DNA of 62,859 nucleotides, filler included, from Stramenopiles sp. TOSAG23-2 (Eukaryota): NCBI GenBank assembly GCA_900128395.1. It is 32 parts of 32 records of this genome, joined end to end, with 100 filler letters (N's around TTAATTAATTAA, not from the genome) between each part and the next. Parts side by side here need not be neighbours in the genome. Positions count along the whole stretch, not along the records: positions 7,925 to 9,802 come from LT652252.1; 31 more parts are not named here. One strand, 5' to 3'. Shown here one piece after another: positions 6,744-54,552 of this stretch. Under the pieces are notes generated by a model. That model had not been told where the DNA came from, did not search any database, and saw only the letters and a program-made list of their open reading frames with translations. Numbering within the stretch: position 1 is the first letter of the stretch; each line of letters begins with the position of its first letter. Both the position numbers and the translations under genes were made by a program.

Positions 6744-7792
6744 ATGGCATCAATAACAACAGAAACTAATAGTCAACAATTAGAAGAAGAAGAAGAAGAA
6801 AATACTACTACTACCGCTACAACAATAGATTCAACCAAACCATTGTAAAGAAGAAGAAAATACTACTACTACCGCTACAACAATAGATTCAACCAAACCA
6901 TTGTATCTGGAAGATACATATTTATTTGAAAAAAAAGATGTTAAATTTATCGAAGTTCGCATGGTAGGGGAAGATGAATCGAAGTTAGAAACTGTGGTTA
7001 TCACTGAATCGACTATCTTTCATCCGCAAGGTGGTGGGCAACCATCTGATACCGGGATTATGAAACAAGGAGATAGTGTTGAATTCAAAGTTTCAAAAGT
7101 ATCTAAAGCTGGTTTATTTGAGAATAATTTAATATACCATTTTGGTGAGTTTACGTCCGAAACAAAAACATTTGATGTGGAAAAACCAATTTATCAAATT
7201 GTAAACGAAGAACAAAGAAGGCGAAATGCCCGTGTACATTCTGCTGGCCATTTGCTTGACCAAGCAATGCGACGAGCTGGTAAAGGAGATATGATAGGAA
7301 CAAAAGGTTTCCACTTCCCTGCTGGATCCTATGTTGAATTTCTAGGCTCTGTTCCAGCAGAAGAAAGACCACAATTAATAATTGATTTACAAAAACATTG
7401 TGATGCTTTAATTGGAGAATCAATTGATACGATTGTAAAACATGTACAAGATGAAAAAGAATTATGTGATAGTTGTCTACCAGGGAGTAGTGATGGTGCA
7501 ATTGGTAGATTGGAAGATGGACCTGTGTAAGTAAATTTTATTTTTTCAATGACTCCTATATATATACAGTATATAGATTATTTCGTTTGTGATGATAGAA
7601 ATTACTTTCTAACCCAACCACACTGTTTTTTAATATACGCTTGATAGACGTGTTGTAATTGTCGGTGGTGACAAAGGTTGTCCTTGTGGTGGTACTCATG
7701 TGAAAAACACAAATGAAATTAAAAAAATGACCGTTAGAAAATTGAAAGTGAAGAAAGGAAGAACAAAAATAAGTTACGATGTAGAACCGTAG
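6744..7792 (+). CDS. alaX: Freestanding alanyl-tRNA editing protein AlaX; exons 6744-7526 and 7648-7792; frame broken near the 5' end by a 59-bp tandem duplication
   Basis: LYLEDTY, TIFHPQGGGQPSDTG, HSAGH (HxxxH) and exon-2 CPCGGTH (CxxxH). GTAAGT..TTCTAAC..TAG intron at 7527-7647 restores the frame. Confidence 0.92.
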
Positions 7793-7924: not shown

Positions 7925-9802
7925 TTGTTTGTTTTTAATCCTTCACCAATACTTTGTACATCAGTAATATTATTATGACTTAGGTTCAATATCTCTAATG
8001 TATTGTTTGTTTCTAATCCTTCACCAATACTTTGTACATCAGTAATATTATTATCATATAGTCTCAATGATGTTAATGTATCGTTTGTTTTTAACAATTC
8101 ACCAATAGCTAATGCATCCTCATCCGTGAGATTTTTTCCATGCAAATCCACTTCCGTCTTTGTACCAATCTCCTGTTTCCATTTAATATATGCAGCACTC
8201 TTTTTCTTATCTACTACTTCTTCTACTAGCTTTTCTTTTAGTGCACGATTTTTATCATTCTGCATATTCCTTTTTTCGTTATTGTTGTTATTATCATTAT
8301 CATGTTGTTCATCTGATTCTGTCAGTTCTCGATACAACTTGCTTGTTCTCGATACAACTTGCAACTTTATTTTCTCAAATTCAATATTATCAAAACATGT
8401 CTGTTCTGGTATTTTTAGTGAAGAATTCAAGGTGTTATCAGCGATTTCTCGTTCACCATGATCTTGATCCACATGATCAACATGTATCACCTTCTTCAAT
8501 TTACGCTCGGCACTATCTTGTATAGTATGCAATTCAATTGAATTATTACTATTTTGAGTTAAAACTGCATCTTTTTTTTTTCCTACCTTCTTTTCAAAAC
8601 CTGTAAGCAATACTTGTTTCTTGCTTTCCATTTCTAATTTTTTCTTATTATCGTTGAATTTTGTACCTTGGCCAATATCGGTAAACCAGCCGCCTTGCAT
8701 AGGTTCTGTTACTATAGCCACTAATTGCTTTGCTCTAGTTACGGAACGATAAATGATCGATTTATCATATTCCAATGTATCTTTCATCTCATCCAATTCT
8801 CGTTCGAATCCAACAAGAACCGCTACATCATATTCCAACCCATCTTGATTTGTGATGGTATCAACTACTAATTGAATAGGTGCACGTCGTTTTTTAAATT
8901 GTGGAAATGTACTAAACATTGTCTCTGCATTTATAATGTTAAAATCAAATGTTTCATCGTCATTCATCTTTGCTTTCAGTTTATTTTGAAAATCATCATT
9001 GTTAAAATGTTGGTGATCATTATTATCAGGCAATATTATCGAGACACGGTTGTCTAGACCAAGAAACGATTCTCTCCTATTACAAATTTTGTCTACGGCA
9101 TAATCTAAGGCGATGGCTGTTTGTTCAACATATTGATCTAATATATCTTCATTTTCATTTTCTCGTTTCACGACAAAAAATTTAACCGCATCACCATATT
9201 TATCATTTGCACACTTTGCTATTTCATCACGTTTTCTAAATAGATTCGATGACATTGTTATTCTCTTTGTCGATCGTATTACATCAATAAGTTTTATATT
9301 GAGTAGTTTTTTGGCATCACGACGAGTAATGTAGTTTATATTCACCTCTATGGCATTCATTCTTACAGGATTTTGCGATAAATCTGAGAGAATAATTCGC
9401 TGTTTTGCTTTAGAAAAGTGATTCTCCCGTATTTCTTCCCAAATCGGATCCTCTCCGTCTATCATATGATGTGCTTCGTCAACAACAAAAAGCTCATATT
9501 TGTCAACTATTTTTCTAATGTTTACAAATTCTAAGCTCACTACATCGTCCTTCAAAAGTTTAAATTGCAATTGTTTTGGTGTTGCACCTATGTCTTTAGT
9601 GCAAAAATGAATGCAATTTAATATCGTTCCAGGATCCACTATACTGTTAACTTCCCCTTTGCTTTCGTTATCAGTGTATAAAATAGGATCTTTACTCAAT
9701 ATACGTATAAGTATCCACCTTGCCAGAAACATAGCAAGACTATTTTTCAAGGGTGGAGGAGAAGGGGTTTGAGCGTCCTTTAGGACGCCCAAATTCCTGG
9801 CA
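7925..9802 (-). CDS. Superfamily-1 helicase (UvrD/Schlafen-like C-terminal motifs) fused to RI-like leucine-rich repeats; partial at both ends
   Basis: VVDEAHH (motif II), ILSDLSQ (III), VIRST (IV), TITNQDGLEYDVAVLVG (V), IYRSVTRAKQLVAIV (VI); then a linker and 26-aa LRRs (LTSLRLYDNNITDVQSIGEGLETN). Confidence 0.8.
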
Positions 9803-35424: not shown

Positions 35425-36136
35425 NNNNNNNNNNNNNNNNNNNNNNNNNNNNNNNNNNNNNNNNNNNNTTAATTAATTAANNNNNNNNNNNNNNNNNNNN
35501 NNNNNNNNNNNNNNNNNNNNNNNNACCAGTTAAAAATGTATTAAAATCATTTTTATCTGGAACACCAGGGGAGGTAATCTTTAACTTAATTGGCAATGCA
35601 GAATTGCGTGAAATTACTGCAATTACAAGTGAACCTAACATAATTAGAATAATAGTAAAAAATCCATTTTTTTTATTTGTGAATGGAAATCGAAATAACA
35701 GGCAAACAGCACTACCAGGTATATTATAAAACTACATCTTACTTCTTACTCTAGACTTTTTTGCCACACAACTTAACTGTGTTCAGCCTTTGTCATACGT
35801 AAATTATACTATAGTTATAGTATAATATAATATTTAATATAATACCATAATACCAGCAGGCACAGCAGGTATAATATAATAGACTATACTACCAGGTATT
35901 AAAATATATAAACTAGAAAAAAACAAAGAAGTGAGGAGTGATATTATAGTGAGGAGATAAGGAAAGTGAGGAGGAGAGTGCTTGAGTGCAGGAGGAGATC
36001 CAAATACGTATTATTATTAATAATATTTAATAAATATTTATAATATATATATAATAAATATCGATATATATTTATAGTATCAACAATATATACTGTATTA
36101 TTATTTTCTGTATATGTATACATATCTTATGCTTAT

Positions 36137-37388
36137 ATGTACTATTACGGACCACCCATGATTCTTGAACAAAGTGTAACTTTGCTCGCATTCTGCTGTT
36201 TAATAGCAGTATGTTCTGCTATTCACGACCCTTTACCTTCTACTAATCCGGTTAAGTTGAGTCCGGCAGAGTTTCAAAAGAACATCCAACAAGAACTATG
36301 TATTAGGAAAGCACAGTTATACAGAGAGTGTAGTTTTAGTAAGGAGAGTATAGTTCAAGAAATTAAAAAGGAAACTGGAAATAATCTTGCCCTCACAAGA
36401 GGTGCACAGGCAATTTCAGTACCAATAGGTTGCAAAGCTACGTTGTATAATGAACAAAGGCATTTTGCAATACATATTAGAGGACCAAAAAATTATTGTA
36501 GTGAAATAAATACTTTAGGAAGTATAGATATGGTTAGGTTAGAAGATAGCGCAGGCATTGCATCGCTTGAAAGTGAGTTAGTTAAAACAGAAAAAACATT
36601 AGAAGGTTATAAAAGAGATATGGATTATTTTGAAAAAAAGGTAACATCTACAGCAATTGAACTGAGGAACATACCTGGACCAAAAGGACCAACTGGAACG
36701 CAAGGTTTAACGGTAAGAGGTGAACTTGGAGAAAGGGGAGCGAAAGGTCCAGCAGGTCTAAAGGGACCAAAAGGACATATAGGTGCACATGGTAATCAAG
36801 GTTCTAGTGGACTGCGAGGCGTTCAAGGTTTGAAAGGTAAAAATGGAGAACGTGGTATAAAGGGTATTGATGGGGATCCATTTCAAGGTCCTCGTGGACC
36901 ACGTGGTGATCCAGGTGTATCATTAACCTATCAAACATTTGAGTTTGATAAAGACTTTAGAAAAGGTGAATATGTTTTCTCGAAAAATAGTATTACTTCA
37001 AAACACGACTCGTTGTTTATTGCAAAGAAGTTGTTTCATTCAGGGAAAAAGTTTCCATATGAAGATAAAGATAATTGGGAGAAATTTGTCGCTCCTCACG
37101 GAATAGAAGGTACAGATGGTATTGCTGTCATAGGTCCAAAAGGTGAAAAGGGGGAGAAGGGAGATCAAGGTGAAGCCGGGGAAGATGGCAAAGTAGTCCC
37201 GTGCAGTCGACCGGCGAATGATGCATCGTGGGTAAAACATCCAAAATGTGAGGAAGCGGAAAAGAAGGCGAAAGAGGAAGGGGAAAAGAAAGCGGCAGAA
37301 GAAGCAAAAAAGAAGGCGAAAGAGGAAGCGGAAAAGAAAGCGGCAGAAGAAGCAAAAAAGAAGGCGAAAGAGGAAGCGGAAAAGAAAG
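36137..37388 (+). CDS. Secreted collagen-like mosaic protein, 3'-partial
   Basis: Signal peptide; two Gly-X-Y tracts; K/E/A-rich tandem repeats at the truncated end. Confidence 0.85.
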
Positions 37389-43377: not shown

Positions 43378-45239
43378 AGTATTGCCACTAGATGCAATGG
43401 TTGCACCAACATCGTCATTAGCTCCAACTTGAAAATTTCTTACTTTTACTGTACTGTTAAATCCGCCAATTTCTATATTAGCAGAAGTGACATCTTTAAA
43501 AATCTCTTTGTCAGCATCGCTGGTTGTAAGTATATTGCCTGTGATGTACAGGTCGTTAACGACTACAATGCCTGCGGCACTAATTGTTGCTTTAGGAGTA
43601 GTTGCAAAATCTCCTATTTTTATGTTGTTCATTCTTACATGTTGGTTTGCAGCACCGATTCTAACATCCATTGTAGTAGCCGTTCCACTGGCATCAACAC
43701 TAAACACTCCTACTTCTCCTGATCCTGAAAAATATAAATCACCAGCAATATCCAAATTGCCTTGGAAAGTGGCATTTTCTTTAATATTTAATGTTCCCCT
43801 CACTTCCATACCTACATCAGCTGAGATTGTGGTACCAGCAGTTTTTTTTAATTTACAATTTGTGTGAGTGGTTGAAATACTACTCCCGACACTTGAACCT
43901 GCTGTTGTTTTCAATTGCATATTTGAATTAGCATTTACAGGGCCTAATTTGTAATCCCCATTCGTGGCGGTCACGGCACAGTCTGTTAATGTTACAAAAT
44001 TATTTACAGCATAGTCGTAAGTGTCGGTGGTGCTAATCAAACCACCATTAGTGATACCAGTAACAGTAACAATATTTCCTCTCCCCACATCTAATTTCGG
44101 TACTTTGACAATAGAGCTTGTACCTCCTATAGTAACAGCACCAATGTAATCCGTAGTCCCATCGGAAATTTTGACAAATATTTCTTTATTTGCTGATTGC
44201 GGTGCAATTATATGGCTACTAATGTTAAGATTTCCCTCAACCGTTAGTGTACCGTGAGCATGTATTGTTCCATCCGTATTAAAATTGCCAGATTTTTCTA
44301 TTGTTGCTCCAGTGTTCCCAGTGGTACTACCAGTATAACCTACACCTTCCCCACCAATTTTTATTGCGTTTAAATTGATATACGTGGTGCTACTAGTAAC
44401 GTCACCAATCGTAATTGTCTGAGACGTAATCGTATCAAATATAGTTTTATCTTCATTCGCATCGCTTATTATATTTCCACCAAACGTGACACTGCCGGTT
44501 AGGGTAGAAGTCCCATCAACTTTAAGGATTCCATTCAATGATCCGTCCCCATTTGTTGCAAAAGTAGTACCGGTGCTGGAGTATCCACCACCAACTTGTA
44601 AAATATTTTGTAATTTGACTGTACTGTTAGTGCCACCAATAGTTATAGCCTTATTGGCTAATGTGTCTGTAAATATATTTTTATTTTCATTCTGTGAACT
44701 TTGAATATCACCTTTAATCATAAGATCTTGTGCTGTTATTTTGCCATCGTCATCGATATATGATTTGGTATTTGTTGTACCAATTTCAAGATAGTGCATT
44801 TTAATATGCGTCCCAGCCGATCCTATTGTTATAGTTCCAGATGTAGCTGAAGATCCGTCGGTAACGAATATTTCTTTATCAATAGTAGTGGTTCCGGCTA
44901 ATATGTTTCCATAGATGGTGACATCATTTTCAAATGTCACACTACCATCTACAATAAGCTCACCGACTGTTTCAATGTTTCCATTACTGTGTATCGTAGC
45001 ACCTGTTGTATTGTAGCCACCACCGATTTTTAAATTATCCATTTTAACATTACTACTTGTCCCACCAAGTTTAATGGTACTAGTAAATTGAGAGTTATCT
45101 GCAATTTTGTGAAACAGCTCTACGGGATCAGAGGTGTCACAGCGAATGTTGGTATGAATTGTTACATCCTTCGTAAATGTAGAATCTTTTGTAACAAGCA
45201 AATTTTCGGTTATATCAAAATTTCCATCTATAATAACTT
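43378..45239 (-). CDS. Large Thr/Gly/Ile-rich repetitive beta-solenoid or fibre-like protein, partial at both ends
   Basis: More than 620 open codons; recurring KEIF..ITIGG.SS.V..L.IGGGY.TTG.TI..G..G.L.VDG units. Confidence 0.8.
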
Positions 45240-45938: not shown

Positions 45939-47198
45939 TTAAATTCTTGACAATTCAGTATCTTTACCTGTAACTTCAGATGGAGATCCATTCTTCATTC
46001 TGTAACTTCTGAAGATTAAACAGAAAGCAATAAAGCAAAAGATAACCCCGATAATCGAAAGGATTGCTTCGAGCAATGAAACCAGTGCTGGAATTGCAAT
46101 GAAGATATTAGCGATTTGATCCAATTGTTCTGGCGTTGCAGAAGAAACTTCATACGTTGCATAATATGGAACCATAGCTACTTTCATATCAGGTGTATAC
46201 ATCGGTCCGTTTCTTGATAAAGCATATATCCCAGTCACAGTTGCCCCTTTAATAGCCGTCCCTAAAACCGGTTCAATGTAAAACCTGCTCTGATCTTCAT
46301 CGGATAGTTTGACGTCGGTCACGGTATCGCCTTTACGTTTTGTCACATTTGCTTTCGCAACTGTAACATCATTTTTTGAAGTTGTTAATTTATTACCCTC
46401 ACCACAACCATAGAAATCAGCACTGCCATAATAAATACTTAAAGCATTATCCTTTTTCAAATTGACTAAACATGTTGGATTTTTTTCTGGGCCTTCGAAA
46501 TTATCTGAGCTTACTAGCATTCTTTCATCGTACGACATTCCTCCCCATGTCTTACCCGTTGGAAGTTCATTCTTGGTAAACCTAGTCCATGCTGTTGGGG
46601 CATACTTTTGTGCAACAACTGTCTGCTTGTCCCCTTTTAGTGCAACATTTTCTTTGAAATCGAATTTTAATGGTCGGGATAATGCACTAATCCACATAGT
46701 GATTGCTTCAGGGAACATTTGTTCATTATCTTTCTTGGCATTTTCGATATATTTTTCTGCAGCTTCCAAATCCTTACTACCTTCAAGCTGAAATTCATAA
46801 TGAATCTTTTCATTTTTATCCAGGGCTATTAATGGTGGGACTTTGGCACCTCCGTAACCTACTAAAGGAACTGCTTCTCCCCATTTCAATGCATCTGTTT
46901 TATAATATGTTTTAAAAGGATCTCTTCTATCTGTCGATCCCATTGCTGCTGTATTTCCTCCATCGGAGTGAACTTTGAACATCTTTTCCTTGCTTGCTGC
47001 TCCTGTGTATATTTCTTTGGAGTACATAAGTTTTTTGAAATGGCATGGTTGTTTCCAGCGATCGTTGCGACCTGAAGCGATGAAGTTTGTTGCGCGTTGA
47101 ATATCGTTTGGATCAGTACATGTTTTTGGTACCGATTGCCCTGGCTGCACAGCATTTTCTAATTTGGTAACTGTAAATGTATCACGTTCCCAACAACT
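45939..47198 (-). CDS. CD36/scavenger receptor class B-like protein, 5'-partial
   Basis: LSRPLKFDFKENVALKG, IYYGSADFY, FYIEPVLG, MVPYYATYE, then a C-terminal TM helix and short tail. Confidence 0.6.
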   Translation of the reverse strand, partial: SCWERDTFTVTKLENAVQPGQSVPKTCTDPNDIQRATNFIASGRNDRWKQPCHFKKLMYSKEIYTGAASKEKMFKVHSDGGNTAAMGSTDRRDPFKTYYKTDALKWGEAVPLVGYGGAKVPPLIALDKNEKIHYEFQLEGSKDLEAAEKYIENAKKDNEQMFPEAITMWISALSRPLKFDFKENVALKGDKQTVVAQKYAPTAWTRFTKNELPTGKTWGGMSYDERMLVSSDNFEGPEKNPTCLVNLKKDNALSIYYGSADFYGCGEGNKLTTSKNDVTVAKANVTKRKGDTVTDVKLSDEDQSRFYIEPVLGTAIKGATVTGIYALSRNGPMYTPDMKVAMVPYYATYEVSSATPEQLDQIANIFIAIPALVSLLEAILSIIGVIFCFIAFCLIFRSYRMKNGSPSEVTGKDTELSRI

Positions 47199-53178: not shown

Positions 53179-54552
53179 GATGCAATGTATTGGGCATGGG
53201 AGAAACGTAAAGAATATAAGAAAGAATTTCCACGCGGTACGCCATTAGTATGTGCATGTGAAAAAGGACGTTTTGAGGATGTGAAAGTATTGATTACAGG
53301 CTATAATGATGTGAATGGTAGTAATGGTAATAATAATAATAATATGACATTGAAAGAATACGTGAATCAAGTCGGTAAAGATAGTCGTGGTAATGATTAT
53401 ACACCTTTAATGATGGCTGCAAGCACATATAAAATTAAGAAATACTTGATAGATAATGGTGCTGATTTACATAAAACATATAAACAAGAATTTCCACAAG
53501 GTACGCCAATAGTATGTGCATGTGAATACGGACGTTTAGAGGATGTGAAATTATTGATTACAGGCTATAATGATGTGAATGGTAGTAATGGTAATAATAA
53601 TAATAATATGACATTGAAAGAATACGTGAATCAAGTCGGTAAAGATAGTCGTGGTAATGATTATACACCTTTACTGATAGCTGCAGAGAACAAACATTTC
53701 CAAATAGTTAAATATTTAGTTGAGATCATTTATCCTCATGCATCTAAAGTAGAAAAGAAATATTATGCAGAATCTCCAAAAGGTACGCCAATAGTATGTG
53801 CATGTGAAAAAGGACGTTTTGAGGATGTGAAAGTATTGATTACAGGCTATAATGATGTGAATGGTAGTAATGGTAATAATAATAATAATATGACATTGAA
53901 AGAATACGTGAATCGAGAAGGTAAACGTAGTAGTGGTTATGAATATACACCTTTAATGATAGCTGCAATGAACGAACATTTCCAAATAGTTAAATATTTG
54001 ATTGAACAAGGTGAAGCTGATCCTAATATTGCAAATATTTATGGATCGAATGCATTACATTTAGCAGCAGCTAATAACAAAAAGGATACGAAGTTGATTG
54101 AGTTCTTATTAACTCATATGTCTCTTAATAGCATTAATAAGAAGGGGTATGATGTGAATGGTAGTAATGGTAATAATAATAATAATATGACATTGAAAGA
54201 ATACGTGAATCAAGTCGGTAGAGATAGTGATGGTAGTGAATTCACACCTTTAACGAAAGCTGCAGAGAACGAACATTTCCAAATAGTTAAATATTTGATT
54301 GAACAATGTGAAGCTGATCCTAATATTGCAGATAGTAATGGATGTAATGCATTACATTGGGCAGCAAGTAACAACAAAAAGGATACGAAGTTGATTGAGT
54401 TGTTATTAACTAATATGTCTCTTACTAGCATTAATAAGAAGACGTCCAGGGGATTCACTCCCCTGGACTGGGCATATGATAATAAAAGTCCAATTCAACA
54501 AAAGATCATTGATCTTATACGTTCAAAAGGTGGAAAACGTGCAAGAGAATAG
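53179..54552 (+). CDS. Ankyrin-repeat protein built from near-identical DNA cassettes, probably 5'-partial
   Basis: TPL..AA..HFQIVKYL..ADPN..NALH.AA; cassette GTP.VCACE.GR.EDVK.LITGYNDVNGSNGNNNNNMTLKEYVN occurs three times plus a partial fourth. Confidence 0.92.
   Translation, partial: DAMYWAWEKRKEYKKEFPRGTPLVCACEKGRFEDVKVLITGYNDVNGSNGNNNNNMTLKEYVNQVGKDSRGNDYTPLMMAASTYKIKKYLIDNGADLHKTYKQEFPQGTPIVCACEYGRLEDVKLLITGYNDVNGSNGNNNNNMTLKEYVNQVGKDSRGNDYTPLLIAAENKHFQIVKYLVEIIYPHASKVEKKYYAESPKGTPIVCACEKGRFEDVKVLITGYNDVNGSNGNNNNNMTLKEYVNREGKRSSGYEYTPLMIAAMNEHFQIVKYLIEQGEADPNIANIYGSNALHLAAANNKKDTKLIEFLLTHMSLNSINKKGYDVNGSNGNNNNNMTLKEYVNQVGRDSDGSEFTPLTKAAENEHFQIVKYLIEQCEADPNIADSNGCNALHWAASNNKKDTKLIELLLTNMSLTSINKKTSRGFTPLDWAYDNKSPIQQKIIDLIRSKGGKRARE

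What the first reader, a model, noticed from the sequence alone, without database searches (positions are those of the whole stretch)
7925..9802. SF1 helicase-LRR fusion: NLR-like receptor with a helicase in place of NACHT/NB-ARC
Seen in sequence: one frame carries SF1 motifs II-VI (DEAH, SDxSQ, IRST, GLEYD, YRSVTRAK), a charged linker and an array of RI-like LRRs. Established: eukaryotic LRR sensors normally pair with STAND NTPases or ROCO GTPases, while this helicase type occurs in Schlafen-type antiviral proteins and prokaryotic defence modules. Inference: a protist innate-immune receptor in which the LRRs gate a nucleic-acid-dependent NTPase, possibly with an N-terminal effector lost off the contig. 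I do not know this architecture from characterised systems.
Basis: partly seen in the sequence, partly recalled or inferred. Interest (0 to 1): 0.78.

Follow-up and report, generated by a model that had tools for sequence, protein, structure and literature searches.

The report
Protist helicase fused to leucine-rich repeats
A short unplaced contig from a marine protist holds the middle of a very large gene that joins a DNA/RNA-helicase-type motor to leucine-rich repeats, a layout that mimics plant and animal NLR immune receptors but uses a different engine, and whose function nobody has tested.

Summary
Contig 7925-9802 is one open frame on the minus strand, cut at both ends. It reads: SF1 helicase core from just after Walker A (DEAH, SDLSQ, IRST, GLEYD, YRSVTRAK), a 158-residue charged linker, then an LRR cap and 2.3 copies of a 26-residue LRR.

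Pfam on the fragment alone shows no significant helicase hit. The helicase call rests on 239 relatives, an AlphaFold model (pLDDT 82) and fold matches to UvrD (Z 19.5) and SLFN11 (Z 17.7).

The fusion is not an assembly artefact. A 1935-residue relative (P0163, 71% identical) has about 1100 N-terminal residues of unknown fold, then helicase, linker and at least seven LRRs. A second relative (P0164) reads TIR-helicase-LRR.

The wider family is uncharacterised. It occurs in dinoflagellates, Aureococcus and Picozoa, and is fused to LRR, WD40, TPR, Ank, kinase, TIR, F-box, U-box and other modules.

An NLR-like sensor or switch is the best reading, but an immune role is inferred, not shown.

Two cautions:
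- The window is 32 unrelated contigs joined by linkers, so neighbouring genes mean nothing.
- The first 54 gene-sense bases of the contig are foreign to the gene.

Six literature searches found no description of this architecture.

The parts
9748..9802 (-). G+C-rich contig end, read as residues 1-18. It is not part of the gene as found elsewhere and is probably a chimeric or mis-joined contig end.
   Evidence: BLASTP homology to P0163 starts at residue 19. Contigs of runs X4 and X1 diverge from the window at 9747/9748 (table 7). The X4 continuation, translated by hand, matches 9 of 10 residues of P0163 1156-1165.
8677..9747 (-). SF1 helicase core, residues 19-375. It runs from just after Walker A (missing) through motifs II to VI and the conserved GGW tail.
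   Evidence: phmmer found 239 relatives at E<=1e-3. AlphaFold2 with 57 sequences gave pLDDT 82.2 and pTM 0.83. Foldseek top matches are PcrA, SLFN11 and UvrD at E about 1e-7. VIA-align gave Z 19.5 to UvrD and 17.7 to SLFN11.
9466..9486 (-). Motif II (Walker B), VVDEAHH.
   Evidence: D108 is at least 90% conserved across 57 sequences. D, E and H are invariant in the 28-sequence alignment A2.
9373..9390 (-). Motif III-like LSDLSQ.
   Evidence: L138 and Q143 are at least 90% conserved.
8827..8871 (-). LVVDTITNQDGLEYD, the motif V region of the second RecA-like domain.
   Evidence: G321 and E323 are at least 90% conserved.
8728..8754 (-). Motif VI, IYRSVTRAK, with the conserved arginine.
   Evidence: R356 is at least 90% conserved.
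8203..8676 (-). Charged, low-complexity linker, residues 376-533. It contains a 20-bp tandem duplication at 8325-8362.
   Evidence: 38% D/E/K/R over 158 residues. TRF found 1.9 copies at 100%. The duplication lies inside gap-free pieces of X1 record 3 and X5 record 26. X4 record 18 also spans it, and the only indel listed for X4 there is at 8290 (tables 4 and 8). The linker aligns poorly with that of P0163.
7927..8202 (-). LRR cap (around YIKWKQEIGTKTEVDLHGKNLTD) and the first 2.3 LRRs of 26 residues. The array is cut by the contig end.
   Evidence: TRF period 78 bp, 2.3 copies, 86% matches. PDB phmmer hits to RI-like and NOD2 LRRs, E 1.1e-9 to 1.6e-6. 71% identity over 103 residues to the LRR start of P0164. 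P0163 continues with at least seven such repeats.

Best explanation
Shown. The contig is an internal piece of a very large, intron-poor protist gene. The complete protein has the order: N-terminal region, SF1 helicase/NTPase core, charged linker, C-terminal array of 26-residue RI-type LRRs. The helicase is UvrD/Schlafen-like by fold and compact. It keeps the conserved ATPase and arginine-finger motifs, so it is probably an active NTPase. It belongs to a large, unnamed helicase family of marine protists. In that family the same core is recombined with repeat modules (LRR, WD40, TPR, Ank, Arm, RCC1) and with signalling or effector modules (TIR, protein kinase, F-box, U-box, and others).

Inferred. 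The protein works as an intracellular sensor or switch built like an NLR, with the SF1 helicase in the place of the NACHT/NB-ARC module. The LRR array binds a ligand and/or holds the motor in an off state. Its variation is concentrated on the predicted concave face. Ligand or nucleic-acid binding then releases NTP-driven rearrangement of the helicase. That in turn activates the N-terminal part, which is a TIR domain in the relative P0164 and an unknown 1100-residue region in the closest relative P0163. The most likely setting is defence against viruses or other non-self.
For: Architecture. P0163 (1935 aa, 71% identical over residues 1-400) reads about 1100 aa, then Walker A GPAGSGKT, helicase, linker and LRRs. 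P0164 (1460 aa, 41% identical) has TIR_2 at 496-577 (29.7 bits, cut-off 28), the helicase core at 756-1198 (ResIII 770-953) and LRRs at 1337-1460. Its TIR region also matches bacterial TIR structures (4lzp, E 0.0011).

Fold. pLDDT 82.2. The top-ranked Foldseek and VIA-align matches shown are SF1 helicases, with Z 19.5 to UvrD and 17.7 to SLFN11.

Family. There are 239 representatives at E<=1e-3. Of the 150 listed I scanned 117 with Pfam.
- ResIII matches 25 of 57, 27 of 28 and 24 of 27 members in the three sets.
- SLFN-g3_helicase matches 13 of 57, 18 of 28 and 7 of 27.
- Fusions seen: Pkinase 1/57, 4/28, 3/27; LRR_6 1/57, 3/28; TIR_2 2/28; WD40 1/57, 2/27; RCC1 2/28, 4/27; F-box-like 2/28, 4/27; TPR_12 2/28; Ank 2/57, 1/28; Arm 2/57.

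Order of modules. LRRs lie C-terminal to the helicase in all 7 LRR-bearing proteins; one of them, P0063, also has a weak LRR_4 stretch N-terminal to it. TIR lies N-terminal to it in both TIR-bearing proteins placed (P0024 of Picozoa, and P0164).

Tree. On a FastTree of 112 helicase cores the LRR label needs 4 changes, at least 2 of them forced by well-supported branches. So the LRR was joined to this helicase more than once, or lost repeatedly.

Repeat variation. Among 11 repeats, mean pairwise identity is 14% at the five x positions of LxxLxLxx and 70% at the other 21 positions. The same pattern, a conserved scaffold with a variable binding face, is described for fungal NLR repeats (PMC4986451, passages read).

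Reality of the DNA. Pieces at 90-100% identity lie in three independent marine runs from three studies, one of them a metatranscriptome. No joint is reported in the RNA run X5 (table 5). X4 record 20 (8602-9285) bridges the helicase-linker boundary.
Against: - No experiment exists on any member.
- The window's own N-terminus is missing, so its effector is unknown. Its closest relative P0163 has no recognisable effector domain.
- Many fusions in the wider family point to general signalling or ubiquitin pathways rather than immunity: kinase, F-box, U-box, FYVE, PH, SAM, RCC1, PPR.
- PADLOC defence models give nothing for the fragment or for P0163. For other relatives they give only weak, generic RecA-domain hits.
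- High variability at the x positions of LxxLxLxx is a general property of LRRs. Repeat identity here (59% overall) is below the 85% used to define highly conserved repeats in fungal NLRs.
- TIR was confirmed in only 2 located proteins. A third, strong TIR_2 hit (E 4.5e-29) could not be assigned to a protein.
- Independent read support for the linker-to-LRR join at about 8160 is thin. X1 record 2 may be the source sample. X4 record 17 has 30 letters on the LRR side, one short of the tool's criterion.
Confidence: 0.55

Rival explanations
1. It is a general signalling or regulatory scaffold with no role in immunity. The helicase-like NTPase acts as a switch or RNA/DNA remodeller. It is coupled by LRR, WD40 or TPR modules to partner proteins in kinase, ubiquitin or membrane-traffic pathways.
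For: Family members carry Pkinase (4 of 28, 3 of 27), F-box-like (2 of 28, 4 of 27), RCC1 (2 of 28, 4 of 27), FYVE and PH (P0019), U-box (P0038), SAM (P0021) and PPR (P0099). The closest long relative of the window, P0163, shows no immune-type domain. RI-type LRRs also occur in axonemal and cytoskeletal proteins, which are among the PDB hits (DRC5, LRRC34, tropomodulin).
Against: TIR-helicase-LRR (P0164) and TIR-helicase (P0024) exist. The combinatorial assortment of repeat and effector modules around one NTPase is the hallmark described for NLR repertoires (PMC4986451, abstract and passages). Kinase, U-box and F-box modules also occur in immune signalling (my knowledge, not tested here).
Confidence: 0.28
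2. It is a genome-maintenance or RNA-metabolism helicase, comparable to the F-box helicase FBH1 or to UvrD. It has merely acquired a protein-binding LRR tail.
For: The best fold matches are UvrD, PcrA, Rep and AddA (Z 15-19.5). FBH1 is also matched (Z 13.8). Some family members carry F-box-like domains.
Against: There are hundreds of divergent representatives with many different architectures, not one conserved orthologue. The aligned part skips the accessory regions of UvrD: 277 residues are aligned over chain range 61-640. TIR fusions also argue against this reading.
Confidence: 0.1
3. The helicase-LRR junction is an assembly or amplification chimera. Two unrelated pieces were joined through a highly repeated LRR unit.
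For: The contig is 1.9 kb and unplaced, and its other end (9748-9802) does look chimeric. The LRR unit is present in very many contigs: at place 8013 there are 18 contigs of X1, 35 of X3, 22 of X4 and 21 of X5. Other contigs diverge at about 8160. Independent bridging of 8160 falls one letter short of the criterion.
Against: Six other proteins from other sources show the same order, helicase then LRR. They are P0163 (EukProt), P0164 (NCBI), P0004 (MetaClust), P0046 (JGI), P0063 (Abedinium) and P0090. The frame runs uninterrupted from helicase to LRR. P0163 aligns with the window from K19 to the last residue.
Confidence: 0.03
4. It is a gene of a giant virus or mobile element rather than of the protist's own genome.
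For: The DNA is low in G+C. The only record is a short contig from marine samples. P0164 carries a Peptidase_S74 chaperone domain, which is known from phage tail spikes (24.8 bits, cut-off 22).
Against: Relatives lie on long nuclear contigs of Aureococcus (up to 8.1 Mb) and on Symbiodinium contigs. The G+C content matches the other 31 contigs of the window, which carry ordinary eukaryotic genes. The viral-contig scan could not be run, so this rival was not tested directly.
Confidence: 0.04

Closest known systems
NLR / STAND immune receptors, especially plant TIR-NB-LRR and animal NOD2-type
   Same: The tripartite order is the same: N-terminal effector (TIR in P0164), central P-loop NTPase, C-terminal repeats. 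The LRRs are RI-type, and their best PDB match is the NOD2 LRR (E 1.5e-17 for P0163). Domains are assorted combinatorially across the family.
   Different: The central module is an SF1 helicase with two RecA-like domains, not a NACHT or NB-ARC STAND module. No Pfam hit to either was found. Oligomerisation and signalling are untested.
Schlafen group 3 proteins (SLFN11, SLFN14, SLFN5)
   Same: They have a compact SF1 helicase of closely similar fold (Z 17.7, rmsd 3.3 over 246 residues). Many relatives hit the Pfam SLFN-g3_helicase model (38 of 112 members of the three alignments). In animals these proteins act in antiviral and stress responses (my knowledge).
   Different: No Schlafen N-terminal nuclease core appears in P0163 or P0164. 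Schlafens have no LRRs. Sequence identity is only 12-15%.
UvrD/PcrA/Rep SF1A helicases and the F-box helicase FBH1
   Same: These are the best structural matches (Z 19.5, 277 residues). Relatives hit UvrD_C_2 (7 of 57). Some relatives carry F-box-like domains, as FBH1 does.
   Different: The aligned part skips large stretches of the UvrD chain (277 residues over range 61-640). Those helicases have no LRR, TIR or kinase fusions.
Fungal NLRs with internally conserved WD/ANK/TPR repeats
   Same: Repeats have a conserved scaffold and a few variable positions on the binding face. Effector, NTPase and repeat modules are shuffled (PMC4986451).
   Different: Here the repeats are LRRs, which that paper did not find in fungal NLRs. 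Repeat identity is lower (59% against 85% or more). The NTPase is a helicase.
ROCO LRR GTPases of brown algae and bacteria
   Same: LRRs are joined to a non-STAND NTPase and have been proposed as candidate immune receptors in stramenopiles (PMC11378527, search listing and abstract start only). The LRR of a bacterial ROCO protein (5il7) matches the P0163 LRR at E 8.3e-17.
   Different: No Roc/COR GTPase domain is present. The NTPase here is a helicase placed N-terminal to the LRRs.

Membership tests
SF1 helicase superfamily (UvrD/Rep/Schlafen-like) | Two RecA-like domains with an SF1 topology | tested here: met
   AlphaFold2 model pLDDT 82.2. Foldseek gave 99 matches at E<=0.001, topped by PcrA, SLFN11 and UvrD. 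VIA-align Z 19.5 to UvrD and 17.7 to SLFN11. The first RecA domain is incomplete on the contig.
SF1 helicase superfamily (UvrD/Rep/Schlafen-like) | Walker A (motif I) | tested here: inconclusive
   Not on the contig, because the frame is cut. It is present in the relatives P0163, P0164, P0152 and P0007 just upstream of the homologous start.
SF1 helicase superfamily (UvrD/Rep/Schlafen-like) | Motif II DExx and the motif VI arginine | tested here: met
   DEAH at residues 108-111 and TRA at 355-357. D108 and R356 are at least 90% conserved.
SF1 helicase superfamily (UvrD/Rep/Schlafen-like) | A curated helicase HMM above its cut-off | tested here: not met
   For the fragment itself, DEAD scores 16.7 bits (cut-off 26) and ResIII 15.7 (cut-off 22.5). 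The test is met in relatives: P0163 ResIII 31.4 and DEAD 36.5; P0164 ResIII 48.8.
Schlafen group 3 | N-terminal Schlafen core (nuclease) domain ahead of the helicase | tested here: not met
   No such Pfam hit in the full-length relatives P0163 and P0164. None is among the family counts listed for the three alignments (only the 25 commonest families are shown per set). The window's own N-terminus is missing.
Schlafen group 3 | SLFN-g3_helicase model above its cut-off (24 bits) | tested here: not met
   No hit for the fragment. P0152 scores 22.0 bits. More distant members do pass (P0016 28.9, P0019 30.0, P0024 25.1).
NLR / STAND | NACHT or NB-ARC nucleotide-binding domain | tested here: not met
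   No NACHT or NB-ARC hit up to E 10 in the fragment or up to E 0.01 in P0163. P0164 has only a sub-threshold NPHP3_N stretch over the Walker A region (16.9 bits against 24.8).
NLR / STAND | C-terminal ligand-sensing repeats and an N-terminal effector | tested here: inconclusive
   Repeats: yes. Effector: off the contig. It is TIR in P0164 and unknown in P0163.
NLR / STAND | Ligand-triggered, nucleotide-dependent oligomerisation | not testable with these tools
   This needs biochemistry or structures.
RI-type leucine-rich repeats | Tandem LxxLxLxxN units with a regular period | tested here: met
   78-bp (26-residue) period, 2.3 copies. L4, L6, N9 and I11 are invariant in 11 of 11 repeats. PDB hits reach E 1.1e-9. 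Pfam on the fragment is just below cut-off (LRR_4 24.5 against 27). P0163 passes (53.4 bits).
RIG-I-like receptors | SF2 DExD/H helicase with CARD and a C-terminal RNA-binding domain | tested here: inconclusive
   The listed fold matches are SF1 helicases and no RLR chain appears among them, which does not exclude a weaker match. No CARD or RIG-I C-terminal domain hit was found. MDA5 RecA1 appears only as a weak generic profile match (E about 2e-4 to 6e-4).
ROCO proteins | Roc GTPase plus COR domain | tested here: not met
   No Roc or COR Pfam hit in the fragment, P0163 or P0164.

The most novel reading that the evidence does not exclude
Marine protists of several supergroups (dinoflagellates, pelagophytes, Picozoa and the window's organism) may carry a so far unrecognised class of intracellular immune receptors. 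In these a Schlafen/UvrD-like SF1 helicase replaces the STAND NTPase as the central switch. The order would be effector (TIR NADase, kinase or an unknown 1100-residue module), then SF1 helicase, then variable repeats (LRR, WD40, TPR, Ank). One polypeptide would then combine RLR/Schlafen-style nucleic-acid sensing with NLR-style repeat gating, assembled repeatedly by domain shuffling.
Probability: 0.35. Interest if true: 0.85.

Novelty: new variant of a known kind. Interest (0 to 1): 0.66.

Why it matters
Very little is known about how single-celled marine eukaryotes sense viruses. NLR-type receptors are thought to need a STAND NTPase.

A family that builds the same three-part layout around an SF1 helicase would be a third, independent solution beside STAND and ROCO. 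It would link two receptor ideas usually kept apart: helicase-based nucleic-acid sensing (RLRs, Schlafens) and repeat-based ligand sensing (NLRs).

The TIR-helicase-LRR relative P0164 gives a direct handle. NADase activity, ATPase activity and LRR deletion can all be tested in vitro or in a heterologous host.

If the family instead turns out to be a general signalling scaffold, it is still a large, unnamed helicase family of ecologically dominant plankton.

Tried and rejected
- Single-sequence AlphaFold2 of residues 1-400 gave pLDDT 32.9 and was unusable. It was replaced by the model built from an alignment.
- PADLOC gave 0 families for the fragment and for P0163. P0164, P0024 and P0152 gave only weak generic RecA1 hits (HamB, type I REase, mad8). 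These were not taken as kinship to bacterial defence helicases.
- No whole genome is held for the window.
- The search for related loci with P0001 in metagenome contigs matched 104 pattern stretches, none confirmed. Three attempts with alignments A1 and A4 failed because no stretch was conserved enough. So no genomic context was obtained, and viral contigs were not tested.
- The protein atlas gave no usable hit for the N-terminal regions of P0163 (1-1090) and P0164 (1-760). PDB phmmer found nothing in the P0163 N-terminus. P0163's precomputed list names PF27087.1, which my Pfam copy did not report, so I could not identify it.
- The local WD40 seed returned 33 proteins, far more than the Pfam counts suggest. 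It probably overlapped conserved non-WD sequence, so the figure was discarded.
- The maximum-likelihood quick search did not finish. FastTree was used instead. It gives local support only, and it flagged the window's clade as long-branched and compositionally unusual.
- A strong TIR_2 hit (E 4.5e-29) and an NPHP3_N hit (E 1.4e-23) among the 28 members of A2 could not be assigned to proteins. A motif search and six further Pfam scans missed them.
- Word depth is 1e3-1e5 over the LRRs against about 5-20 elsewhere. It was not used as a copy number; only counts of contigs were used.
- Gaps in cover of single runs, and runs with small shares that I did not lay, were given no weight.
- Six literature searches found nothing on helicase-LRR or TIR-helicase architectures. 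I also read the passages on 'helicase' in PMC7159879 and PMC8195603. Those mention SF1 helicase modules only as effectors beside PIN domains in bacterial systems. Supplements were not seen, and subscription journals are not covered.
Full report
**What the window is.** The 62,859-base window is not a continuous stretch of chromosome. It consists of 32 contigs of 1855-1882 bp, sorted by falling length. They are joined by N44-TTAATTAATTAA-N44 linkers, which place a stop codon in all six frames. Neighbouring genes therefore say nothing about each other.

The finding's coordinates, 7925-9802, are exactly one such contig. G+C content is about 30% throughout the window. Other contigs carry ordinary eukaryotic genes in long open frames. 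Examples are glycosyltransferase family 20, a CLC channel, GNT-I, a collagen-repeat protein and an ankyrin-repeat protein.

**The observation.** The minus strand of the contig is a single frame of 625 codons without a stop, open at both ends.
- DEAH in VVDEAHH, residues 106-112
- LSDLSQ, residues 138-143
- VIRSTKRI, residues 174-181
- DGLEYD, ending at residue 325
- IYRSVTRAK, residues 350-358

A 158-residue linker follows, with 38% charged residues. Then comes an LRR cap and 2.3 copies of a 78-bp (26-residue) unit.

Taken alone, the fragment is weak evidence. Pfam gives DEAD at 16.7 bits (cut-off 26) and LRR_4 at 24.5 bits (cut-off 27). PADLOC gives nothing. A single-sequence fold failed, with pLDDT 32.9. 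PDB sequence search matched only the LRR part, to RI-like and NOD2 LRRs with E down to 1.1e-9.

**The helicase is real.**
- phmmer of residues 1-400 against 1.84 billion representatives found 239 proteins at E<=1e-3, 72 at E<=1e-10 and 3 at E<=1e-30.
- Aligned with 56 of them, the fragment keeps every position that is at least 90% conserved: D108, L138, Q143, L171, R176, G203, G321, E323 and R356.
- With that alignment AlphaFold2 gave pLDDT 82.2 and pTM 0.83.
- Foldseek against the PDB gave 99 matches at E<=0.001. The top ones are PcrA, SLFN11, UvrD, HelD, Rep, nsp13 and Upf1.
- VIA-align gave Z 19.5 to UvrD (277 residues, rmsd 3.5) and Z 17.7 to SLFN11 (246 residues, rmsd 3.3).
- A profile of the alignment matched RecA1 domains of many helicases, and PcrA/UvrD beyond motif II.

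Relatives hit ResIII, DEAD, SLFN-g3_helicase, AAA_30 and UvrD_C_2. Close relatives show a Walker A (GxxGSGKT) just upstream of where the window's homology begins. So the contig starts inside the first RecA-like domain.

**The ends of the contig.** Residues 1-18 (9748-9802) are G+C-rich and do not align with any relative. BLASTP homology to P0163 starts at K19. A contig of the independent marine run X4 leaves the window at 9747. A contig of X1 that shares the G+C-rich piece leaves it at 9748 in the other direction (table 7). By my hand translation, the X4 continuation matches 9 of 10 residues of P0163 1156-1165. I conclude that this end of the contig is a mis-join. At the other end the contig simply stops inside the LRR array.

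**The fusion is real.** P0163 (EukProt, 1935 aa) is 71% identical over residues 1-400 and aligns with the window from K19 to its last residue. Its order is:
- about 1100 residues with no recognisable domain
- Walker A and helicase
- a divergent linker
- at least seven 26-residue LRRs and a short tail

P0164 (NCBI, unnamed, 1460 aa, 41% identical) has four recognisable parts:
- Peptidase_S74 at 227-279
- TIR_2 at 496-577 (29.7 bits, cut-off 28)
- the helicase core at 756-1198
- LRRs at 1337-1460

Its LRR start is 71% identical to the window's over 103 residues, much closer than the two helicases are to each other. This suggests exchange of LRR modules between paralogues. Its TIR region matches bacterial TIR structures. 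It contains the S..Y..S..C..EL-type stretch that, from memory and not from a call, holds the catalytic glutamate of NADase TIRs.

Helicase followed by LRRs also occurs in four further proteins:
- P0004: helicase, kinase, LRR_6
- P0090: helicase, LRR_6, kinase
- P0046: JGI metagenome
- P0063: Abedinium folium

A local search of all 179 stored proteins found LRRs of this type in 8, including the window and one cluster-mate of P0046.

**Read evidence.** The contig's words are held by two small 2015 runs of one organism, which may be the source. They are also held by marine metagenomes and metatranscriptomes from many studies. I laid X1 plus three independent runs from three studies: X3, X4 and the RNA run X5.
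- Pieces at 90-100% identity tile 8107-9703 when the runs are combined.
- X4 record 20 (8602-9285) bridges the helicase-linker boundary.
- No joint is reported in the RNA run X5, which is consistent with one exon here (table 5). Three single-contig skips in the DNA runs X1 and X4 (8017-8100, 8517-8554, 9285-9460) were not followed up.
- A 20-bp tandem duplication in the linker (8325-8362) lies inside pieces of X1, X4 and X5, so it is natural.

Presence in an RNA library does not by itself prove transcription.

The LRR unit is different. At place 8013 it is carried by 18 contigs of X1, 35 of X3, 22 of X4 and 21 of X5. Several contigs diverge from the window at about 8160, with other cap sequences. 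So the unit is shared by many genes or arrays. The join at 8160 is bridged by X1 record 2. In the independent run X4 it is bridged only by a piece with 30 letters on one side, one short of the tool's criterion. For that junction the relatives' architectures are the stronger evidence.

**The family.** Named members come from Aureococcus anophagefferens (helicase plus WD40 propeller), Symbiodinium, Abedinium folium and a Picozoa single-cell genome. All are annotated as hypothetical.

I scanned 117 of the 150 listed hits with Pfam; 33 were not scanned. Besides the helicase models, the members carry:
- Pkinase: 1 of 57, 4 of 28, 3 of 27
- LRR_6: 1 of 57, 3 of 28
- TIR_2: 2 of 28
- WD40: 1 of 57, 2 of 27
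- RCC1: 2 of 28, 4 of 27
- F-box-like: 2 of 28, 4 of 27
- TPR_12: 2 of 28
- Ank: 2 of 57, 1 of 28
- Arm: 2 of 57
- NPHP3_N: 1 of 28
- Singly: FYVE, PH, PPR, U-box, SAM and SEC-C

TIR lies N-terminal to the helicase in both proteins where I could place it (P0024 and P0164). LRRs lie C-terminal in all seven LRR-bearing proteins, though P0063 also has a weak LRR_4 stretch N-terminal to the helicase.

In a FastTree of 112 helicase cores, the window groups with P0163, P0164, P0152, P0004 and P0012 in one clade. Support is 100, but the clade is long-branched and compositionally unusual. The other LRR-bearing members sit in three other clades. The LRR label needs 4 changes, at least 2 of them forced by well-supported branches. 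So LRRs were joined to this helicase more than once, or were lost often.

**The repeats.** In 11 repeats from the window, P0163 and P0164, positions L4, L6, N9, I11 and I17 are invariant. Entropy peaks at positions 2, 3, 5, 7 and 8 (1.9-2.9 bits), which are the x positions of LxxLxLxx on the concave face. Mean pairwise identity is 14% at those five positions and 70% at the other 21.

This resembles the conserved-scaffold, variable-face pattern reported for repeats of fungal NLRs (PMC4986451, passages read). However, overall identity here (59%) is below their 85% criterion, and such variability is common to LRRs in general.

**Interpretation.** The following is shown: a fragment of a giant protist protein with a probably active SF1 NTPase core, a linker and RI-type LRRs. 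It belongs to a large uncharacterised family with NLR-like modular assortment, including TIR-helicase-LRR.

The following is inferred: it acts as an intracellular sensor or switch in which the repeats recognise a ligand or hold the motor off, and NTP-driven change passes the signal to the N-terminal module, most likely in defence.

The main rival is a non-immune signalling scaffold. It is supported by the kinase, F-box, U-box, FYVE, PH and RCC1 fusions and by the lack of any immune-type domain in the window's closest relative. A genome-maintenance helicase, an assembly chimera and a viral gene are less likely, for the reasons given under the rivals.

The protein is not a member of the NLR/STAND, Schlafen, RLR or ROCO families, because a defining domain of each is absent. 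It may nevertheless work like an NLR.

**Novelty.** Six full-text searches found no paper describing helicase-LRR, TIR-helicase or helicase-WD40 architectures. Two broad surveys of conflict systems mention SF1 helicases only as effector modules in bacterial systems. Supplements and subscription journals were not covered.

I rate the finding a new variant of a known kind: an NLR-like three-part receptor with a different NTPase. Interest is 0.66.

Noticed in passing
window 1-62859: The window is a string of 32 unplaced contigs (1855-1882 bp, sorted by length). They are joined by N44-TTAATTAATTAA-N44 linkers with stops in all six frames. Any reading that uses gene neighbourhood across these linkers is void.
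   Followed up: yes
window 9748-9802: A G+C-rich 55-base contig end that no relative shares. Contigs of two runs diverge here, and depth in run X1 is higher than in the adjacent gene (35.5 against 0-5). It is probably a chimeric join.
   Followed up: partly
window 8325-8362: A perfect 20-bp tandem duplication (1.9 copies) inside the coding linker. It is not a multiple of three, yet the frame stays open. It is present in contigs of three runs, including the RNA run.
   Followed up: partly
window 7925-8176: The 78-bp LRR unit is carried by tens of different contigs in every run laid (18-35 at place 8013), with several alternative upstream sequences at about 8160. This indicates a large family of LRR arrays sharing nearly the same DNA unit.
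   Followed up: partly
P0164 residues 227-279 and 496-577: This relative combines a Peptidase_S74 (endosialidase chaperone) domain, a coiled region and a bacterial-type TIR domain ahead of the helicase and LRRs. The S74 domain is unexpected in this setting.
   Followed up: no
alignment A2 (28 long relatives): One member has a strong NPHP3_N (STAND-type NTPase) hit (E 1.4e-23). One has a strong TIR_2 hit (E 4.5e-29) plus TIR (E 1.1e-14), alongside the helicase. I could not identify which proteins these are.
   Followed up: partly
P0163: The precomputed Pfam list names PF27087.1, which my Pfam copy did not report. The 1100-residue N-terminal region has no hit in Pfam, the PDB or the protein atlas.
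   Followed up: partly
window 43378-45237 (-) and 45942-47198 (-): Two long open frames (620 and 419 residues), the first spanning its whole contig, with no Pfam family at E<=1e-5.
   Followed up: no
window 53179-54549 (+): An ankyrin-repeat protein with a weak N-terminal match to a phage-type PDDEXK endonuclease model (PDDEXK_15, 27.8 bits, cut-off 27).
   Followed up: no
window 36044-37387 (+): An open frame with collagen triple-helix repeats (E 7e-17) in a protist contig.
   Followed up: no
window 6829-7527 (+): On the neighbouring, unlinked contig: a 233-residue frame with a weak match to the editing region of alanyl-tRNA synthetase (tRNA-synt_2c, 30.5 bits, cut-off 30.3).
   Followed up: no
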